DNA of 4,004 nucleotides from a virus (lineage: Duplodnaviria; Heunggongvirae; Uroviricota; Caudoviricetes), in the IMG/VR virus record IMGVR_UViG_2802429253_000007, one strand, 5' to 3'. Shown here piece after piece: positions 1 to 3,743 of the stretch. The position numbers and the translations under genes are program-made. Every line of letters starts with the position of its first letter. Position 1 is the stretch's first letter. The notes under the pieces are model-generated. The model was given only the letters and a program-made list of their open reading frames with translations, did no database searches and was not told the origin of the DNA.

Positions 1-27
1 CCCACAGAATGGGCCAGTTGGCTCTGA

Positions 28-255
28 TCATTTCCCAGGACACGTTTTCCTCCTGCGTTCCCGCATCTGCTGACAGTCAATACAGGTCACCACATCCGGC
101 AGCGCCGCAAGGCGCTGTGCCGGAATAACGTTCCCGCAGTCATTGCAGAAGCCCCGGCTGTGGGGCGCTTCTTTTGTCCGTGTCTGCCAGGCTTTAACGA
201 CGCTCTGACGCTCGTTCAGAACCACTTCACTGATGCGATCGATTTCGTCGGTCAT
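28..255 (-). CDS. DksA/TraR-family C4-type zinc-finger protein (75 aa)
   Basis: Translation contains C-x2-C-x17-C-x2-C (CNDC...17 aa...CIDC), the spacing typical of DksA/TraR zinc fingers; size fits phage/plasmid TraR-like proteins. ATG at 255-253 overlaps the upstream stop (ATGA), and a G-rich stretch (GCGGGG) lies about 5 nt upstream. Confidence 0.8.
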   Translation of the reverse strand: MTDEIDRISEVVLNERQSVVKAWQTRTKEAPHSRGFCNDCGNVIPAQRLAALPDVVTCIDCQQMRERRRKTCPGK

Positions 256-860
256 TTCGGCCCCGCAGACATTTTGTGACGGCTTGATTTGCTGTAACGG
301 GCAAAGCCGTCAAGGGTTCTTACACCGAGATAGCCCAGCGCCGGGGTAAGCAACATCAGCGTGATATCCCAGTCCGGTGATGGCATATGCAGCGTGATAC
401 CTCTGGCACCGGCAATGGCTCCGGCAATCTGGCCGCAGGAGAGCAACAGCACATAGGCCAGACTGCTGTAACAGGAAAGGCGGGCCAGCAGCGGGCGTGT
501 CTGGCGCACATAGCTGTCCGTGGCGTTGTCACCATTGCGGATGGTTTCCTGCTGTTCGTGGTGTGCGGCCTGCTGGTCAGCCAGCACCAGCTTCTGCCGT
601 TCCACCTCCAGCTGTTGCAGCTGAATTTTCAGGGTTTCCAGTTGCACCAGTTGCTCCGGTGACAGCATCACCAGTTTTTGTTCCAGAATGCGTTGCTGTT
701 CAGCAACGGGAAGGCTTTCCCGGACGCTTTCCACCATACCGGCCACCGAGTCAGCGGCGGCAGATGTACTGCCACCAAACCAGCGCCCGACGGAACGAAT
801 CAGCCCCGGCCCGGCTTTCAGCAGAACAGAGGCGATGCCTGAAAGGGTTAACGGATCCAT
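252..860 (-). CDS. Hypothetical protein, 202 aa: soluble N-terminal region with Gln/Leu-rich coiled-coil-like segment and two predicted C-terminal transmembrane helices; possible lysis-module accessory protein
   Basis: ATG at 860 preceded by AGAGGG about 4-5 nt upstream; overlaps the 3' end of the upstream gene by 13 nt. Central heptad-like region (EQQRILEQKLVMLSPEQLVQLETLKIQLQQLEVERQKL); C-terminal hydrophobic stretches (LAYVLLLSCGQIAGAIAGA and ITLMLLTPALGYLGV) followed by a basic tail. Function not recognised. Confidence 0.6.
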   Translation of the reverse strand: MDPLTLSGIASVLLKAGPGLIRSVGRWFGGSTSAAADSVAGMVESVRESLPVAEQQRILEQKLVMLSPEQLVQLETLKIQLQQLEVERQKLVLADQQAAHHEQQETIRNGDNATDSYVRQTRPLLARLSCYSSLAYVLLLSCGQIAGAIAGARGITLHMPSPDWDITLMLLTPALGYLGVRTLDGFARYSKSSRHKMSAGPK

Positions 861-1258
861 GAATCCCTCTTATGAAAACGGCGCTGATGTTTATAAAGTG
901 CCGCGCAAAAAATACCGCCCAGCCAGAACGCCAGCTGATAAGGCTCCTTCAGATAAAGAATGCCGAATGTCAGCATGAAAAAACCAACGGCCCAGACCAC
1001 CCATGACCACACGACAATTCGAAGGGAGGCGGCCCGGAAACGCCTTTTGGGCTGCAGGCGATAAGGTACGTTGCCCAGCTGGAAACTGTGAATCAGGCAG
1101 AGTGTCGCGCCGTATGCCAGCACCATGACCGCAAACGCCCGCCATCCGGCAAAACAGCTCGCCAGAAAAAGTACTGCCGACAGTCCCAGAAACGACCACT
1201 GGCACAACATAAAGCGGGAGTAAATAACGCGAACAAAAAGACTATTCATTCTGTGCAT
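848..1258 (-). CDS. Hypothetical integral membrane protein, 136 aa, about four predicted TM helices (holin-like or immunity-like candidate)
   Basis: Start placed at internal ATG 1258 (MHRMNS...) because AAGGA lies about 8 nt upstream; the longer track ORF (to 1429) has an Arg/Pro/Thr/Trp-rich junk-like N-terminal translation. Four hydrophobic segments separated by basic loops (QPKRRFRAAS; C-terminal KHQRRFHKRDSWIR). Confidence 0.55.
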   Translation of the reverse strand: MHRMNSLFVRVIYSRFMLCQWSFLGLSAVLFLASCFAGWRAFAVMVLAYGATLCLIHSFQLGNVPYRLQPKRRFRAASLRIVVWSWVVWAVGFFMLTFGILYLKEPYQLAFWLGGIFCAALYKHQRRFHKRDSWIR

Positions 1259-1469
1259 TGAGTTTTTCCTTGTACTTCTGGCACTGCCAGAAAATGTCCC
1301 GTGTATCCACGGAGTTCCAGCCACGCATGTAGTAGCTGGCGTGTGTGCCGTCATGGCCGGTATAGTCCAGCGGTTTCGGGGGCGGACCTCCGGCCATGCG
1401 GTGTAAAACCTCCTGACGCAGGCGGTCACGCCGCCCGGCTTTCAGTGAGGCATCCCAGCCTTTGCCCAT
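1242..1469 (-). CDS. Hypothetical small basic soluble protein (75 aa)
   Basis: ATG at 1469 lies 1 nt after the lysozyme stop (TGAtATG), with a G-rich stretch just upstream. Translation is hydrophilic and protein-like with no hydrophobic segment, whereas the overlapping alternative frames look like junk. No family recognised. Confidence 0.5.
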   Translation of the reverse strand: MGKGWDASLKAGRRDRLRQEVLHRMAGGPPPKPLDYTGHDGTHASYYMRGWNSVDTRDIFWQCQKYKEKLNAQNE

Positions 1470-1470
1470 A

Positions 1471-2067
1471 TCACCCCCGCGTGGCGGACATGATGCCCAA
1501 AGGGGTATCGATGATTTCCAGACAGGCGTCGGTCAGCTTTTCCATGCGGTTAAACCAGCCGTTCAGGTATTTGCCCTGGGCGGGTTTTGATTTGATGATG
1601 TCGGCATAAAAGCGGGAACGACGGACAATACAGCGGGCCAGCAACCAGTCCGGGGTGGACAGGCTCACGGCCTTACGGGTACGCGGGCCGATGATGCCGT
1701 CAGCATCCACATCCGCGGCTTCCTGCAAAATTCTGATGGCTTTTTTAACGCCATGCTGAACCGCCGCATCGAACACAAACATCGCCACGCCATCAGGCCA
1801 CTGGTCACATCCGGCAGGCAGCCAGTAATCGCGCCAGTAAATCTGCGCAACCTGTTCGCGGGTTAAGTCCCTGATGCGGGTATCCGGTTTGCCGTCGCCG
1901 TTGACATCGGTTTTGCCGTCAATCACACCGTCGCGGCGGTCAGAAATGCCGTATTTGGTTTCGCCGCCACGGTCAGTGGGGTCATTGACATAAACGCCTT
2001 CGATATCAGGACGCAGAATAAAATTCAGCGCATGTTCAAAGGCCGGGGAGAATTTTTGATTTTCCAT
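1471..2067 (-). CDS. Glycoside hydrolase family 108 lysozyme (endolysin candidate) with C-terminal peptidoglycan-binding (PG_binding_3-like) domain, 198 aa
   Basis: N-terminal motif EGVYVNDPTDRGGETKYGI matches the conserved GH108 catalytic signature; C-terminal DADGIIGPRTRKAV resembles the PG_binding_3 motif. AGGTG lies 5 nt upstream of ATG 2067. There is no N-terminal hydrophobic/SAR segment, so it is presumably cytoplasmic and holin-dependent. Confidence 0.9.
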   Translation of the reverse strand: MENQKFSPAFEHALNFILRPDIEGVYVNDPTDRGGETKYGISDRRDGVIDGKTDVNGDGKPDTRIRDLTREQVAQIYWRDYWLPAGCDQWPDGVAMFVFDAAVQHGVKKAIRILQEAADVDADGIIGPRTRKAVSLSTPDWLLARCIVRRSRFYADIIKSKPAQGKYLNGWFNRMEKLTDACLEIIDTPLGIMSATRG

Positions 2068-2079
2068 AAAAGCACCTGT

Positions 2080-2106
2080 GAAGCAGAGTTAAACGTGGTC
2101 TGCTTC
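2080..2106. promoter_or_regulatory. Perfect 8-bp inverted repeat GAAGCAGA-N11-TCTGCTTC immediately upstream of the lysozyme RBS (candidate operator or 5'-UTR hairpin)
   Basis: Read directly from the sequence: 2080-2087 GAAGCAGA and 2099-2106 TCTGCTTC are exact reverse complements. It sits between the mor terminator and the lysozyme SD. Function is inferred only. Confidence 0.3.
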
Positions 2107-2120
2107 ATGGTGCCGGAGGC

Positions 2121-2146
2121 ATAAAAAAAGCCGGATTTACCGGCTT
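2121..2146 (-). terminator. Rho-independent terminator downstream of mor
   Basis: On the minus strand: stem AAGCCGG / loop TAAAT / stem CCGGCTT followed by TTTTTAT, starting 6 nt after the mor stop codon. The stem is short (5 GC pairs plus 2 AU pairs) but the U-tract is clear. Confidence 0.6.
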
Positions 2147-2152
2147 CATTGA

Positions 2153-2602
2153 TTAAGGGCGTCGTGGCGGACGACGAACGGGATGAGGCAGGTTCGGGGA
2201 GGGGTAAAACAAATCCGGCTGGTATTTATTGCGCTCCAGACGTCGCATCCGTTTGATGGCCTTGTAGACGGTTTTATACGTCACTCCGTAACGCTGAACC
2301 AGTTCAGGAATATTATGGCCGTTAAAATCACGCCAGATACGCATATCCCGGACAAGATTCTCCAGAATATTCCCCCTCGGAACATAAACCTGCATCCCGC
2401 CGATATGGCGACAAATCGCCACAACCAGCTCAAGGGAATGAGCAGGGTCTGCGCCAATCCGGGCCAGCTCTTTACGCAGCAGTGCGTTCAGTTCAGAAAG
2501 TAACGCCGGATAAGCGGTGTTTTCCTGGTAATCATGAAGATATTCCAGAACGCTGTCGTCCCGGAGGTCTTCGAATAAATCCTGCTCTTTCATCTGTTTC
2601 AT
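2153..2602 (-). CDS. mor: Mor (middle operon regulator) / Mor-C family transcription activator, 149 aa
   Basis: Translation closely resembles phage Mu Mor as I recall it (DLFEDLRDD..., PALLSELNALLRKELARIGADPAHSLELVVAICRHIGG.QVYVPRG, RDFNGHNIPELVQRYGVTYKTVYKAIKRMRR). ATG at 2602-2600 overlaps the gemA stop (ATGA), the same gemA-mor arrangement as in Mu. It carries a C-terminal Pro/Arg-rich extension. Confidence 0.88.
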   Translation of the reverse strand: MKQMKEQDLFEDLRDDSVLEYLHDYQENTAYPALLSELNALLRKELARIGADPAHSLELVVAICRHIGGMQVYVPRGNILENLVRDMRIWRDFNGHNIPELVQRYGVTYKTVYKAIKRMRRLERNKYQPDLFYPSPNLPHPVRRPPRRP

Positions 2603-3150
2603 ACAGCAATTCTCCCGCTGTTTCGTGCGCGGGCATATGCACTGGTCAGTGCATCATAGCCGCGCAGCTCCCGCCCGGTTTCGCTCACAGGTAAAGGCAC
2701 ACCATGTCGGGCAAAGGCTTCCCGGATGCAGCGCATGTGCCACTGTTTGAGCGTTTCGAGCACAACATGCAACGATTCCCCGTGACACCATGCCAGCGTG
2801 GAAACACCCTGACCGCCATTACGTCTGGCCGTCAGGCGTTCAACGTATTTGTCCAGCGCGGCGTCGCTGATATCGGAGACGAAACCATCAAGAAACATCT
2901 GCTGCCAGATTTTATAAATCTTCTCGCGCGGTGTGACATGCCCCTTAAAGCGACGGCGGGGATGTTTTTTCTGCTTCTTAAAACCGCGCTCTTTCATGGC
3001 ATCGAGCACCTGTTCCAGTTGTGCAACGGACAGCTCGCGGCAACTGGTCTTGCCTGTGCACTGCACCAGAAAGGCGCGGTAAGTGTCATCGTCGAGTTGT
3101 AGATCACGACGGGCGACATGAATTAATTTAATCAGGGATGTGCGATTCAT
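2599..3150 (-). CDS. gemA: GemA / Mu gp16-like protein (DUF1018 family), 183 aa
   Basis: Start placed at ATG 3150 (MNRTSLIK...) because GGAGG lies 7 nt upstream; the track ORF begins 18 codons earlier without an SD. Motif LIKLIHVARRDLQLDDDTYRAFLVQCTGKTSCRELS is characteristic of the Mu gp16/GemA family, and the gene is immediately upstream of and overlapping mor. Confidence 0.85.
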   Translation of the reverse strand: MNRTSLIKLIHVARRDLQLDDDTYRAFLVQCTGKTSCRELSVAQLEQVLDAMKERGFKKQKKHPRRRFKGHVTPREKIYKIWQQMFLDGFVSDISDAALDKYVERLTARRNGGQGVSTLAWCHGESLHVVLETLKQWHMRCIREAFARHGVPLPVSETGRELRGYDALTSAYARARNSGRIAV

Positions 3151-3223: not shown

Positions 3224-3490
3224 ATGAAAAACAGTGAACAGCCTTATGATGTTGCAGGGTATGTCATTGCCTCAAGGTTGCTGATACTCCTTGTCAGAAA
3301 GGGGCTAATTACCGCAGAGGAAGGCAAAACGATCCTCGAAGCCGCAGCAAGCGGAGCGGCAGAGGCTCCGGCATTGAGAACAACGAATAATCCCATCCTG
3401 CAAATATCACAGCTAATCACTGATACCATCAGTTTGTTAGACCAAGATTCTGATGAATATCAAAAGCCTCAGCCATCTGAGCATCCGTAA
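3224..3490 (+). CDS. Candidate small protein (88 aa) encoded opposite to the surrounding operon; hypothetical
   Basis: ATG 3224 preceded by AGAGGAAA (SD with about 8-9 nt spacing, AT-rich spacer). Product is hydrophilic and helix-like (MKNSEQPYDVAGYVIASRLLILLVRKGLITAEEGKTILEAAASGAAEA...). Against it: the 3' end overlaps the minus-strand 104-aa gene by about 60 nt, it contains several rare codons, and a competing minus-strand ORF covers the same DNA. Confidence 0.35.
   Translation: MKNSEQPYDVAGYVIASRLLILLVRKGLITAEEGKTILEAAASGAAEAPALRTTNNPILQISQLITDTISLLDQDSDEYQKPQPSEHP
3244..3429 (-). CDS. Alternative candidate small ORF (61 aa), mutually exclusive with the plus-strand ORF at 3224-3490
   Basis: ATG at 3429-3427 overlaps the stop of the upstream 104-aa gene (TGATG), an arrangement typical of translational coupling. 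No SD; product is Ser/Ala/Val/Leu-rich with almost no charged residues, which could be a small membrane peptide or an antisense shadow. Confidence 0.2.
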   Translation of the reverse strand: MVSVISCDICRMGLFVVLNAGASAAPLAAASRIVLPSSAVISPFLTRSISNLEAMTYPATS

Positions 3491-3743
3491 GAATATCTTT
3501 ATTTGATAGTCCCAGCCTGCGACGAATGTATTCCTCGCGGGCTGCTTCATTTTGTAGCGCCACGGCAGTTTCCACCTGGTTCATTTCACGGTTAATAATG
3601 CTCCGGACTTCTCTGGCGGTGAGGTCATGCTCAATACCATATTTAACGATATCGTGCATACGTTCCAGCATCCTTAAATTAGCCATGACGCCATCAATAT
3701 CAACTGGTGTGAATTTCATTTCTTTTTTCTCTGGTTTATTCAT
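3429..3743 (-). CDS. Hypothetical protein, 104 aa (Mu-like early-region protein of unknown function)
   Basis: ATG at 3743 with GAGGT about 8 nt upstream. Hydrophilic, charged, helix-like translation (MNKPEKKEMKFTPVDIDGVMANLRMLERMHDIVKYG...). Start overlaps the stop of the upstream ORF by 8 nt. No family recognised. Confidence 0.7.
   Translation of the reverse strand: MNKPEKKEMKFTPVDIDGVMANLRMLERMHDIVKYGIEHDLTAREVRSIINREMNQVETAVALQNEAAREEYIRRRLGLSNKDILTDAQMAEAFDIHQNLGLTN

What the first reader, a model, noticed from the sequence alone, without database searches (positions are those of the whole stretch)
252..860. Tail-anchored coiled-coil protein (N-terminal soluble domain, two C-terminal TM helices) of unknown function in the lysis module
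The architecture is the reverse of an i-spanin (which has an N-terminal TM helix and a periplasmic coiled coil): here about 110 soluble residues with a Gln/Leu-rich heptad region precede two C-terminal hydrophobic helices and a basic tail. The gene is translationally coupled on both sides (13-nt overlap upstream, ATGA overlap with the TraR-like gene). It could be an antiholin or lysis-timing regulator, a releasin-like factor, or an unrelated membrane-anchored protein.
Basis: inference. Interest (0 to 1): 0.55.

Follow-up and report, generated by a model that had tools for sequence, protein, structure and literature searches.

The report
Divergent GTA-type holin in Mu-like prophage
The "unknown" membrane protein is a divergent member of a known phage holin family (Pfam PF11351, related to the cholera-phage holin TeaA), and it is most likely the protein that opens the inner membrane so this Mu-like prophage's soluble lysozyme can reach the cell wall; a useful annotation fix, not a new kind of system.

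Summary
The ORF at 252-860 (minus strand, 202 aa) is real, and both overlaps are as described. It is conserved across Escherichia, Klebsiella, Citrobacter, Yersinia, Vibrio and Shewanella Mu-like phages.

The architecture mostly holds. There is a helical N-terminal region of about 120 aa, one clear TM helix (about aa 121-152), a weaker second one (about 164-184) and a basic tail. Heptad periodicity is not above chance. The first 28 residues form an amphipathic, borderline-hydrophobic helix.

The function is not unknown. The protein scores just under threshold for Pfam PF11351 GTA_holin_3TM (19.6 vs 24.8 bits). A profile of its own orthologs recovers proteins that pass that threshold. The family aligns with the ICP1 TeaA holin family (hhalign 96%, E 3e-9). 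The best structural matches are "Holin of 3TMs".

In 12 of 13 loci examined, family members sit directly or nearly directly downstream of an endolysin. Five enzyme types are represented, and none of the ten endolysins scanned (four types) has an N-terminal membrane or SAR segment.

The real releasin homolog (DUF2730) is a separate gene two positions downstream.

Best reading: this is the holin for the soluble GH108 endolysin (confidence about 0.6). It is a new member of a known kind and of modest interest.

The parts
252..860 (-). Target CDS, 202 aa: divergent PF11351 (GTA_holin_3TM)/TeaA-superfamily protein and candidate holin
   Evidence: ORF. PF11351 19.6 bits, E 1.4e-3. phrog_1544 E 1.8e-59. 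Profile links to proteins that pass the Pfam threshold. hhalign to the TeaA family 96.1%. Foldseek top hit 'Holin of 3TMs'.
777..854 (-). aa 3-28: N-terminal amphipathic, borderline-hydrophobic helix with the conserved GP..R..G.FGG motif. It is either an interfacial helix or the first of the family's nominal three TM segments.
   Evidence: KD 1.33, WW -0.3, hydrophobic moment 0.46-0.61. AF2 helix 3-28. The motif is conserved in A1/A2 and aligns with the TeaA N-terminus.
528..773 (-). aa 30-111: acidic, Q/L/E-rich helical region, predicted cytoplasmic
   Evidence: AF2 helices 30-47, 52-64 and 68-111. Family net charge -4.5. Heptad periodicity not above shuffles.
474..554 (-). aa 103-129: most conserved family motif, QxTIRxxDxxxDxYVRxTRPxxARxS, just before and running into the first TM helix
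   Evidence: R122 and P123 are invariant; A126 and S129 are nearly invariant across 61 sequences. The motif aligns to the D.FSKRF region of TeaA.
405..500 (-). aa 121-152: clear transmembrane helix
   Evidence: WW 19-residue sum down to -6.0; KD up to 1.74; family mean KD 1.1-1.3. AF2 helix 116-152.
372..404 (-). aa 153-163: short loop, predicted periplasmic (family net charge -1.0)
   Evidence: Charge analysis. Non-helical in AF2.
321..371 (-). aa 164-180: second, weakly hydrophobic helix with the conserved (S/T)PxLxY(L/M)GxR motif
   Evidence: WW -2.2; KD ~1.1; P173 and Y177 nearly invariant, R181 invariant.
255..320 (-). aa 181-202: basic C-terminal tail (6 K/R, 1 D/E), predicted cytoplasmic
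1471..2067 (-). Soluble endolysin (GH108 + PG_binding_3), with no N-terminal TM or SAR segment. First gene after the terminator that follows mor.
   Evidence: Pfam 84.1 and 63 bits. Maximum KD19 in the first 60 aa is 0.48. NCBIfam 'holin-associated N-acetylmuramidase' 74 bits, below its cut-off.
1242..1469 (-). 75-aa soluble protein, homolog of Mu gp18 (E18)
   Evidence: tblastn 70% identity to Mu, D108 and SfMu gp18. Matches phrog_2121 positions 3-75.
848..1258 (-). 136-aa protein with 3-4 hydrophobic helices. Lineage-restricted accessory gene in the slot that Mu gp19 occupies.
   Evidence: Hydropathy. Only 13 clusters found. Absent from the Vibrio and Shewanella relatives. No similarity to the target, ArrA or Mu gp19.
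28..255 (-). TraR/DksA C4 zinc-finger protein, ATGA-coupled to the target
   Evidence: PF01258 42.3 bits; TIGR02419 61.6 bits.
1..43 (-). 5' end of the DUF2730 (Mu gp25 releasin family) gene, which runs off the window
   Evidence: Annotated in the 97%-identical E. coli PSS-15 prophage. 27% identity to Mu gp25, E 5e-12.
2127..2147 (-). Intrinsic-terminator-like hairpin plus T-run after mor. The lysis genes therefore appear to begin a separate (late) transcription unit.

Best explanation
The gene encodes an inner-membrane protein of the PF11351 (GTA_holin_3TM, TC 1.E.54-type) / ICP1 TeaA superfamily. It most likely acts as the holin of this Mu-like prophage.

Shown:
- homology to that superfamily;
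- a helical N-terminal region of about 120 aa, followed by one strong and one weak hydrophobic helix and a basic tail;
- a near-invariant position downstream of endolysins that lack export signals;
- a soluble GH108 endolysin in this prophage.

Inferred mechanism:
- The protein inserts as a helical hairpin. The Arg-rich pre-TM segment and the basic tail are cytoplasmic, the short acidic loop is periplasmic, and the acidic helical N-domain lies in the cytoplasm.
- The N-terminal amphipathic helix lies on or in the membrane.
- The protein accumulates during late transcription without harm. At a set time it oligomerises into lesions that collapse the proton-motive force and let the folded ~22-kDa muramidase reach the peptidoglycan.
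- The cytoplasmic domain and the neighbouring small proteins (the DUF2730 protein, the 136-aa membrane protein, the gp18-like protein) are candidate timing modulators.
For: (1) Pfam: PF11351 is the only hit for the target (19.6 bits, E 1.4e-3, aa 69-162). It is also the only family hit by more than one of 61 family members (30/61 at E<=0.01).

(2) Reciprocal link: a profile built only from enterobacterial orthologs (A1) finds P0124 (E 4e-41), P0160 (5e-23), P0213 (2.5e-10), P0249, P0255, P0261, P0264 and P0265. Each of these passes the PF11351 gathering score at 31-37 bits. P0213 in turn hits the Klebsiella ortholog by tblastn (E 6e-8).

(3) hhalign: family alignment A2 against the ICP1 TeaA family alignment A3 gives probability 96.1%, E 3e-9 over 116 columns. 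Against TeaA alone it gives 86.6%. TeaA collapses the PMF and is DNP-triggerable (bioRxiv 10.1101/790493). The RcGTA pair rcc00555-rcc00556 is required for lysis and is described as an endolysin-holin locus (PMC5026251).

(4) Structure: the AF2 model has pLDDT 91.8. The best BFVD matches are 'Holin of 3TMs, for gene-transfer release' (E 7e-7) and an unnamed phage protein.

(5) Context: family members lie directly after an endolysin in L005, L009, L011, L013, L014, L015, L017, L019 and L020. They lie 1-2 small genes after it in the window, L003, L004 and L008. The enzymes are GH108, GH19-like, SLT-like, M15 peptidase and amidase.

(6) A holin is needed: the GH108 endolysin has no TM or SAR segment. 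In the Vibrio and Shewanella relatives, the only membrane proteins called near the endolysin are this protein and DUF2730. Mu's DUF2730 protein showed no holin behaviour (PMC9239132).

(7) The positive-inside rule fits an N-in/C-in hairpin.
Against: - The target itself scores below Pfam's gathering threshold (19.6 vs 24.8 bits).
- No member of this Mu-like subfamily has been tested. Holin activity in the superfamily rests on two distant members.
- The second TM helix is marginal.
- Several relatives carry another small TM protein upstream of the endolysin that could be the holin (L005 'holin protein III', L009, L011, L017, L018). This prophage also has an adjacent 136-aa multi-TM protein.
- No spanin was found, so the step this protein serves is not fixed by elimination.
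- At 202 aa with a large cytoplasmic domain, it is atypical of classical small holins.
Confidence: 0.6

Rival explanations
1. Antiholin or lysis-timing regulator. The real hole-former would be another membrane protein (the 136-aa protein here, the small TM proteins upstream of the endolysin in other phages, or the DUF2730 protein). This protein would bind it through its TM hairpin or cytoplasmic domain to delay or tune triggering.
For: A second membrane protein is translationally coupled to it here. Small TM proteins lie upstream of the endolysin in L005, L009, L011, L017 and L018. A large cytoplasmic domain suits a regulatory role. Holins and antiholins are often homologous or adjacent, as with the ICP1 TeaA/ArrA pair.
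Against: The 136-aa protein is confined to about 13 clusters and is absent from the Vibrio, Shewanella and L014 Mu-like relatives, which keep the target. The tested relatives in the superfamily behave as holins, not antiholins. Mu gp25 (DUF2730) and the positional analogs gp19/gp20 showed no holin activity.
Confidence: 0.15
2. A post-endolysin envelope-disruption factor that substitutes for spanins. The gene sits where Rz/Rz1 sit in classical cassettes, and where Mu has gp23/23.1. These phages show no recognisable spanin.
For: The order small TM protein - endolysin - family member is seen in L005 and L009. In Mu the spanin occupies the slot between the endolysin and gp24/gp25. No lipobox ORF, nested or separate, appears in the window, in 22 kb of L001, or in L003, L004, L008 or L013.
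Against: The positive-inside rule puts the N-domain in the cytoplasm. There is no signal peptide, no lipobox and no N-terminal type-II anchor, so the protein cannot span the periplasm. The endolysin-then-family-member order is also that of the RcGTA endolysin-holin pair, so position alone is uninformative. TeaA acts on the inner membrane. L015 and L017 carry i-spanin-like type-II coiled-coil proteins as well.
Confidence: 0.08
3. Releasin-like helper that assists release or activation of the endolysin without forming holes.
For: It is a membrane-tethered protein with a cytoplasmic helical domain in a Mu-like lysis cluster, loosely like Mu gp25.
Against: There is no PF10805/DUF2730 match. A genuine DUF2730 gene is present separately. 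The endolysin has no SAR anchor to be released.
Confidence: 0.05
4. A membrane protein unrelated to lysis: a moron, a superinfection-exclusion protein, or a TatA/TatE-like subunit as one RefSeq ortholog is named.
For: RefSeq calls WP_032239570.1 (95% identical) a 'twin-arginine translocase TatA/TatE family subunit'.
Against: No Tat model in NCBIfam or Pfam matches, even at E<=10. There are no PADLOC hits. The gene is conserved in the core late operon across genera and is tied to endolysins in unrelated phage types.
Confidence: 0.04

Closest known systems
[quoted passage not shown]
   Same: Only Pfam hit. Close relatives (P0124, 40% identical) pass the gathering score. Same layout: N-terminal helix, long helix, conserved Arg-Pro motif entering the first TM helix, second TM helix, basic tail. 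Same gene order, endolysin then this gene. The partner endolysin is of the same GH108/PG_binding_3 type.
   Different: The target itself is sub-threshold (19.6 vs 24.8 bits). The subfamily motif is D.YVR.TRP..AR.S, where some distant members such as P0248 have W.RP instead. It is prophage-borne in a Mu-like late operon rather than at a chromosomal GTA locus. It is accompanied by TraR and DUF2730 genes.
ICP1 TeaA (gp137/ORF137), the experimentally supported holin of the Vibrio cholerae phage ICP1
   Same: Profile-profile homology of 96.1%, E 3e-9, over the N-terminal FGG motif, the helical region and the first TM helix. Similar length (182 vs 202 aa) and architecture. TeaA depolarises cells and is DNP-triggerable.
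   Different: Pairwise identity is only ~16-17%. TeaA itself does not hit PF11351 by hmmscan. TeaA's neighbour ArrA (antiholin) has no similarity to the 136-aa neighbour here. ICP1 is a large lytic myovirus, not a transposable phage.
Class II holins and pinholins (e.g. phage 21 S68): two TM domains, N-in/C-in
   Same: Predicted two-helix hairpin with both ends cytoplasmic. One helix is weakly hydrophobic. The C-terminal tail is basic. This comparison rests on general knowledge of holin classes.
   Different: No sequence relationship was tested or found. This protein has an extra ~120-aa cytoplasmic N-domain and no dual-start motif. The partner endolysin is soluble, so large holes rather than pinholes are required.
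Mu gp25 releasin (DUF2730, PF10805) and the Mu lysis cassette
   Same: Same phage type and neighbourhood: GemA, Mor, gp18 homolog and a DUF2730 gene are present.
   Different: Mu has a SAR endolysin, gp23/23.1 spanins and no holin (PMC9239132). This prophage has a soluble GH108 endolysin, no recognisable spanin, and this PF11351-type protein. The target is not a DUF2730 protein.
i-spanins (Rz family)
   Same: Membrane-anchored, helix-rich protein encoded after the endolysin.
   Different: Opposite polarity: no N-terminal TM anchor, and the helical domain is predicted cytoplasmic. No o-spanin partner ORF. No Pfam or PHROG spanin match.

Membership tests
Pfam PF11351 GTA_holin_3TM | Score at or above the curated gathering threshold (24.8 bits) | tested here: not met
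   The target scores 19.6 bits, E 1.4e-3. The Shewanella and Janthinobacterium homologs score 18.4 and 19.0 bits.
Pfam PF11351 GTA_holin_3TM | Homology to bona fide members shown by profile or transitive search | tested here: met
   The ortholog-only profile A1 recovers P0124, P0160, P0213, P0249, P0255, P0261, P0264 and P0265, all at 31-37 bits, above threshold. 30 of 61 family members hit PF11351, and no other family recurs. P0213 hits the Klebsiella ortholog reciprocally.
Pfam PF11351 GTA_holin_3TM | Architecture: N-terminal hydrophobic/amphipathic helix, helical linker, two further hydrophobic helices near the C-terminus (the nominal 3 TM) | tested here: met
   Hydropathy and AF2 model. 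Whether helix 1 and helix 3 actually span the membrane is unresolved.
Pfam PF11351 GTA_holin_3TM | Encoded next to an endolysin gene | tested here: met
   12 of 13 loci, covering five endolysin types. L018 was too short to judge.
ICP1 TeaA holin family | Sequence-profile homology | tested here: met
   hhalign A2 vs A3: 96.1%, E 3e-9, 116 columns. A1 vs TeaA alone gives only 34%.
Holins (functional class) | Lethal inner-membrane lesion formation with PMF collapse, triggerable early by energy poisons | not testable with these tools
   Needs expression experiments. Known only for the distant relative TeaA.
Holins (functional class) | Late-gene membrane protein required by an endolysin that has no export signal | tested here: met
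   The endolysin lacks a TM or SAR segment. The gene lies in the unit downstream of the terminator after mor. Actual expression timing was not measured.
i-spanin / u-spanin | N-terminal type-II TM anchor (or lipoprotein signal) with a periplasmic domain, plus an o-spanin lipoprotein partner | tested here: not met
   No signal peptide or lipobox. Charge distribution places the N-domain in the cytoplasm. No lipobox ORF is nested or nearby.
Releasin (DUF2730, PF10805) | PF10805 match over the whole length, with an N-terminal TM domain | tested here: not met
   No PF10805 hit. A separate DUF2730 gene follows TraR.
TatA/TatE (RefSeq name of an ortholog) | Match to Tat subunit models | tested here: not met
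   No Tat model matches at E<=10 in NCBIfam or E<=0.1 in Pfam.
Tail-anchored membrane proteins (strict sense) | A single TM helix within about 30 residues of the C-terminus and no other membrane segment | tested here: not met
   There are two C-terminal hydrophobic helices plus a borderline N-terminal one. 'C-terminally anchored' is a fair description; 'tail-anchored' in the strict sense is not.

The most novel reading that the evidence does not exclude
Mu-like phages that carry soluble endolysins are not holin-less like Mu. They use this PF11351-type holin inside a conserved trio: holin, TraR-like zinc finger, DUF2730 protein. In this reading the releasin-family DUF2730 protein acts on the holin, as a trigger or antiholin, instead of on a SAR endolysin. 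That would answer the question Chamblee et al. 2022 left open about what DUF2730 proteins do in phages without SAR endolysins. A more radical variant is that the same protein also serves the outer-membrane step in these apparently spanin-less cassettes.
Probability: 0.15. Interest if true: 0.6.

Novelty: new member of a known kind. Interest (0 to 1): 0.3.

Why it matters
It gives a testable function to a protein now labelled hypothetical, placed in a PHROG of unknown function, or mislabelled TatA/TatE. The protein occurs in Mu-like prophages of E. coli, Klebsiella and other Enterobacteriaceae, and in plaque-forming Vibrio Mu-like phages and a Shewanella Mu-like prophage.

It shows that the "holin-less" lysis scheme of Mu does not extend to its relatives with soluble GH108 endolysins.

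It identifies the likely partner for the still-unexplained DUF2730 proteins of those phages.

It also extends the PF11351 family beyond the reach of its current Pfam threshold. The biology itself, holin plus endolysin, is conventional.

Tried and rejected
- TatA/TatE identity (the RefSeq name of an ortholog): no model support.
- Releasin identity: a separate DUF2730 gene exists.
- Spanin: a lipobox scan of all frames found only the in-frame LLLSC inside the first TM helix. That motif is absent from Klebsiella orthologs (MSLGQ), so it is coincidental.
- The embedded 59-aa ORF at 356-535 has no signal-like N-terminus.
- Similarity of the 136-aa neighbour to the target, to ICP1 ArrA or to Mu gp19: none.
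- Mu gp24 is not TraR-like.
- Defence-system models (PADLOC): no hits.
- Solved structures: no sequence match and no fold match.
- Heptad coiled-coil test: not above shuffles.
- NCBIfam: nothing for the target.
- The afdb50 fold library was unavailable.
- The primary RcGTA holin paper (PMC3811591) is not held, so the rcc00556 evidence is cited second-hand.
- The shallow-alignment AF2 run (pLDDT 72) was superseded by the deep-alignment run.
Full report
**Source and layout.** The window is part of a Mu-like (transposable) prophage. It is 97% identical over 98% of its length to a prophage in E. coli PSS-15, and related prophages occur in 82 of 5,426 complete E. coli genomes. All genes relevant here are on the minus strand. 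In order they are:
- GemA (2599-3150) and Mor (2153-2602);
- a terminator-like hairpin (2147-2127);
- a GH108 + PG_binding_3 endolysin (1471-2067);
- a 75-aa homolog of Mu gp18 (1242-1469; 70% identity);
- a 136-aa protein with 3-4 hydrophobic helices (848-1258);
- the target (252-860);
- a TraR/DksA zinc-finger protein (28-255);
- the start of a DUF2730 gene, running off the window (1-43; 27% identical to the Mu releasin gp25, E 5e-12).

The gp26-like, gp27 and terminase genes follow in the E. coli PSS-15 locus.

**Checking the observation.** The ORF, its ATG start, a Shine-Dalgarno-like AAGAGGGA, the 13-nt overlap upstream and the ATGA overlap downstream are all as described. The gene is real. 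Orthologs of 70-99% identity occur in many enterobacterial genera, and a profile of them finds 153 representatives at 50% identity in a 1.8-billion-protein library.

Hydropathy shows one unambiguous TM helix at about aa 121-152 (White-Wimley sum -6.0 kcal/mol). A second helix at about aa 164-184 is marginal (-2.2). The N-terminal helix at aa 3-28 is borderline (-0.3) and strongly amphipathic (hydrophobic moment 0.46-0.61).

The charge pattern fits a hairpin with both ends in the cytoplasm:
- Arg-rich segment before the first TM helix;
- loop between the helices with net charge about -1;
- tail with 6 K/R.

AlphaFold2 with a 61-sequence alignment gives an all-helical model at mean pLDDT 91.8, with helices 3-28, 30-47, 52-64, 68-111, 116-152 and 164-178.

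The Q/L/E richness is real. In a simple shuffle test, however, a/d heptad periodicity is not above chance. "Coiled coil" is therefore not established.

**What it is.** Pfam gives a single sub-threshold hit, PF11351 GTA_holin_3TM (19.6 bits against a 24.8 cut-off, E 1.4e-3). PHROGs places the protein in phrog_1544, function unknown (E 1.8e-59). Five further results turn the weak Pfam hit into a firm family assignment.
- The profile built only from enterobacterial orthologs recovers proteins that each pass the PF11351 gathering score. Examples are P0124 (E 4e-41 to the profile, 36.4 bits to PF11351), P0160, P0213, P0249, P0255, P0261, P0264 and P0265.
- Of 61 diverse family members, 30 hit PF11351 at E<=0.01. 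No other Pfam family is hit by more than one member.
- P0213, which passes the threshold, hits the Klebsiella ortholog in return by tblastn (E 6e-8).
- I retrieved ICP1 ORF137 (TeaA) from the ICP1 genome and built an alignment of its family. hhalign of the target family against it gives probability 96.1%, E 3e-9 over 116 columns. The aligned region covers the N-terminal FGG motif, the helical region and the first TM helix.
- The best structural matches among viral models are "Holin of 3TMs, for gene-transfer release" (E 7e-7, 31% identity over 200 columns). Solved structures give nothing, by sequence or by fold.

**What the family is known to do.** TeaA depolarises V. cholerae when expressed alone and is triggered by DNP (bioRxiv 10.1101/790493). 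The RcGTA pair rcc00555-rcc00556 is required for lysis and GTA release, and is described as an endolysin-holin locus (PMC5026251). I could not read the primary paper.

**Genomic context.** In 12 of 13 loci examined, a family member lies directly downstream of an endolysin, or one to two small genes downstream. The thirteenth contig (L018) was too short to judge.
- GH108: the window, Klebsiella phage Kp4866-3, Vibrio phage 1.028.O, Shewanella MuM16-2, L013.
- GH19-like: L009.
- SLT-like: L011.
- M15 peptidases: Janthinobacterium phage Donnerlittchen, L014, L015, L017.
- Amidase: Vibrio phage 219E41.2.
- A protein annotated only as 'Bbp2', which I did not classify: Vibrio phage LP.1.

None of the ten endolysins I scanned (all but those of Vibrio phages LP.1 and 219E41.2 and Klebsiella phage Kp4866-3) has an N-terminal TM or SAR segment. 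Each cassette therefore needs a hole-forming holin.

In Mu-like phages, the order target, TraR, DUF2730 is conserved in E. coli, Klebsiella, Vibrio, Shewanella and a metagenomic contig. The 136-aa membrane protein is confined to a few enterobacterial clusters. It is absent from the Vibrio and Shewanella phages, where the target and the DUF2730 protein are the only membrane proteins near the endolysin.

In Mu itself, gp25 (DUF2730) and the membrane proteins gp19 and gp20, which follow gp18, showed no holin behaviour. Mu uses a SAR endolysin and no holin (PMC9239132). The Vibrio phages listed in that paper's Table S1 as pairing GH108 endolysins with DUF2730 carry a homolog of the target. It is 39% identical and annotated "coil containing protein".

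**Most likely mechanism.** This is inferred. The protein is the holin. It inserts as a two-helix hairpin with a roughly 120-aa acidic helical cytoplasmic domain. The N-terminal amphipathic helix lies at or in the membrane. The protein accumulates during late expression. It then oligomerises into lesions that collapse the PMF and release the soluble GH108 muramidase. I put this at about 0.6. Homology to the PF11351/TeaA superfamily I put at about 0.9.

**Rivals.**
- Antiholin or timing regulator (0.15). Other small TM proteins precede the endolysin in several relatives, and a multi-TM neighbour exists here.
- Spanin substitute (0.08). The gene sits where Rz/Rz1, or Mu gp23/23.1, would be, and no lipobox ORF was found in any frame. 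Against this, the predicted topology keeps the N-domain cytoplasmic, and the endolysin-then-holin order is also that of RcGTA.
- Releasin-like (0.05) and unrelated or TatA-like (0.04). Both are poorly supported.

**Novelty.** This is a divergent subfamily of a known holin family that current Pfam, NCBIfam and PHROG annotation misses. It is a new member of a known kind. The modest wider point is that Mu's holin-less scheme does not apply to its GH108-bearing relatives. In those phages the unexplained DUF2730 proteins sit two genes from a holin candidate.

Noticed in passing
window 848-1258 (-): A 136-aa protein with 3-4 hydrophobic helices and a basic tail is translationally coupled on both sides (17-nt and 13-nt overlaps). 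It has a very narrow distribution: 13 clusters, mostly E. coli, and 30% identity in Klebsiella phage Kp4866-3. It occupies the slot after the gp18 homolog that Mu fills with the unrelated membrane protein gp19. Function unknown; it could be an antiholin, an exclusion protein or a moron.
   Followed up: partly
window 1242-1469 (-); L003 2238-2501; L004 2235-2495: A homolog of Mu gp18 (E18) lies after the endolysin here, instead of after mor as in Mu. It directly precedes and overlaps the holin-family gene in the Vibrio and Shewanella phages. The 284-position profile phrog_2121 matches this protein at positions 3-75 and the target at 91-273, which hints that fused or merged forms exist somewhere.
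   Followed up: partly
window 1-860 (-) and L001 8738-9860; L003, L004, L008, L014: The gene trio holin-family protein, TraR/DksA zinc finger, DUF2730 (releasin family) is conserved in Mu-like phages of E. coli, Klebsiella, Vibrio and Shewanella and in a metagenomic contig. All of these have endolysins lacking SAR domains.
   Followed up: partly
window 1-2100 and L001 1-21917; L003, L004, L008: No spanin candidate (lipobox ORF in any frame, or type-II coiled-coil protein) was found in or near the lysis cluster of these Mu-like phages. How the outer membrane is breached is unexplained.
   Followed up: partly
window 1870-1941 (-), endolysin aa ~43-66: The GH108 endolysin carries an Asp/Gly-rich insertion, DRRDGVIDGKTDVNGDGKPDTRIRD, that resembles a calcium-binding or dockerin-type loop (weak Dockerin_1 hit, E 0.085). 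It is conserved in Klebsiella phage Kp4866-3 but absent from the Vibrio and Shewanella GH108 enzymes.
   Followed up: no
L002 3252-3860 (RefSeq WP_032239570.1): A 95%-identical ortholog is annotated in RefSeq as a 'twin-arginine translocase TatA/TatE family subunit'. No Tat model supports this, so it looks like a mis-annotation.
   Followed up: yes
protein P0262 (593 aa): A secreted-looking repeat protein has eight copies of a peptide...SIFSTIAKAIPSVISGISSLFGG..., separated by KR sites. The peptide resembles the target's N-terminal amphipathic GP/FGG helix (E 1e-4). This suggests the N-terminal motif is a generic membrane-active amphipathic peptide, though the match may be chance.
   Followed up: no
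L002 5167-5646; L003 1139-1591; L004 1122-1571; L014 2393-2884: Related Mu-like phages carry a variable ~150-160-aa signal-peptide protein between mor and the endolysin; in L002, L003 and L004 these are unrelated in sequence. This window lacks the gene; only ~85 nt containing the terminator lie there. It looks like a moron slot.
   Followed up: no
window 252-509 (-): An in-frame GTG at Val118 would give an 85-aa product consisting only of the Arg-rich motif, both TM helices and the tail, which is class-II-holin-sized. There is no convincing ribosome-binding site, and conservation of the start was not tested.
   Followed up: no
window 3224-3490 (+): This is the only plus-strand gene in the window (88 aa, phrog_8747). 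It overlaps the 3' end of the convergent 104-aa gene (3429-3743) and is the positional equivalent of the oppositely oriented Mu gp15.
   Followed up: no
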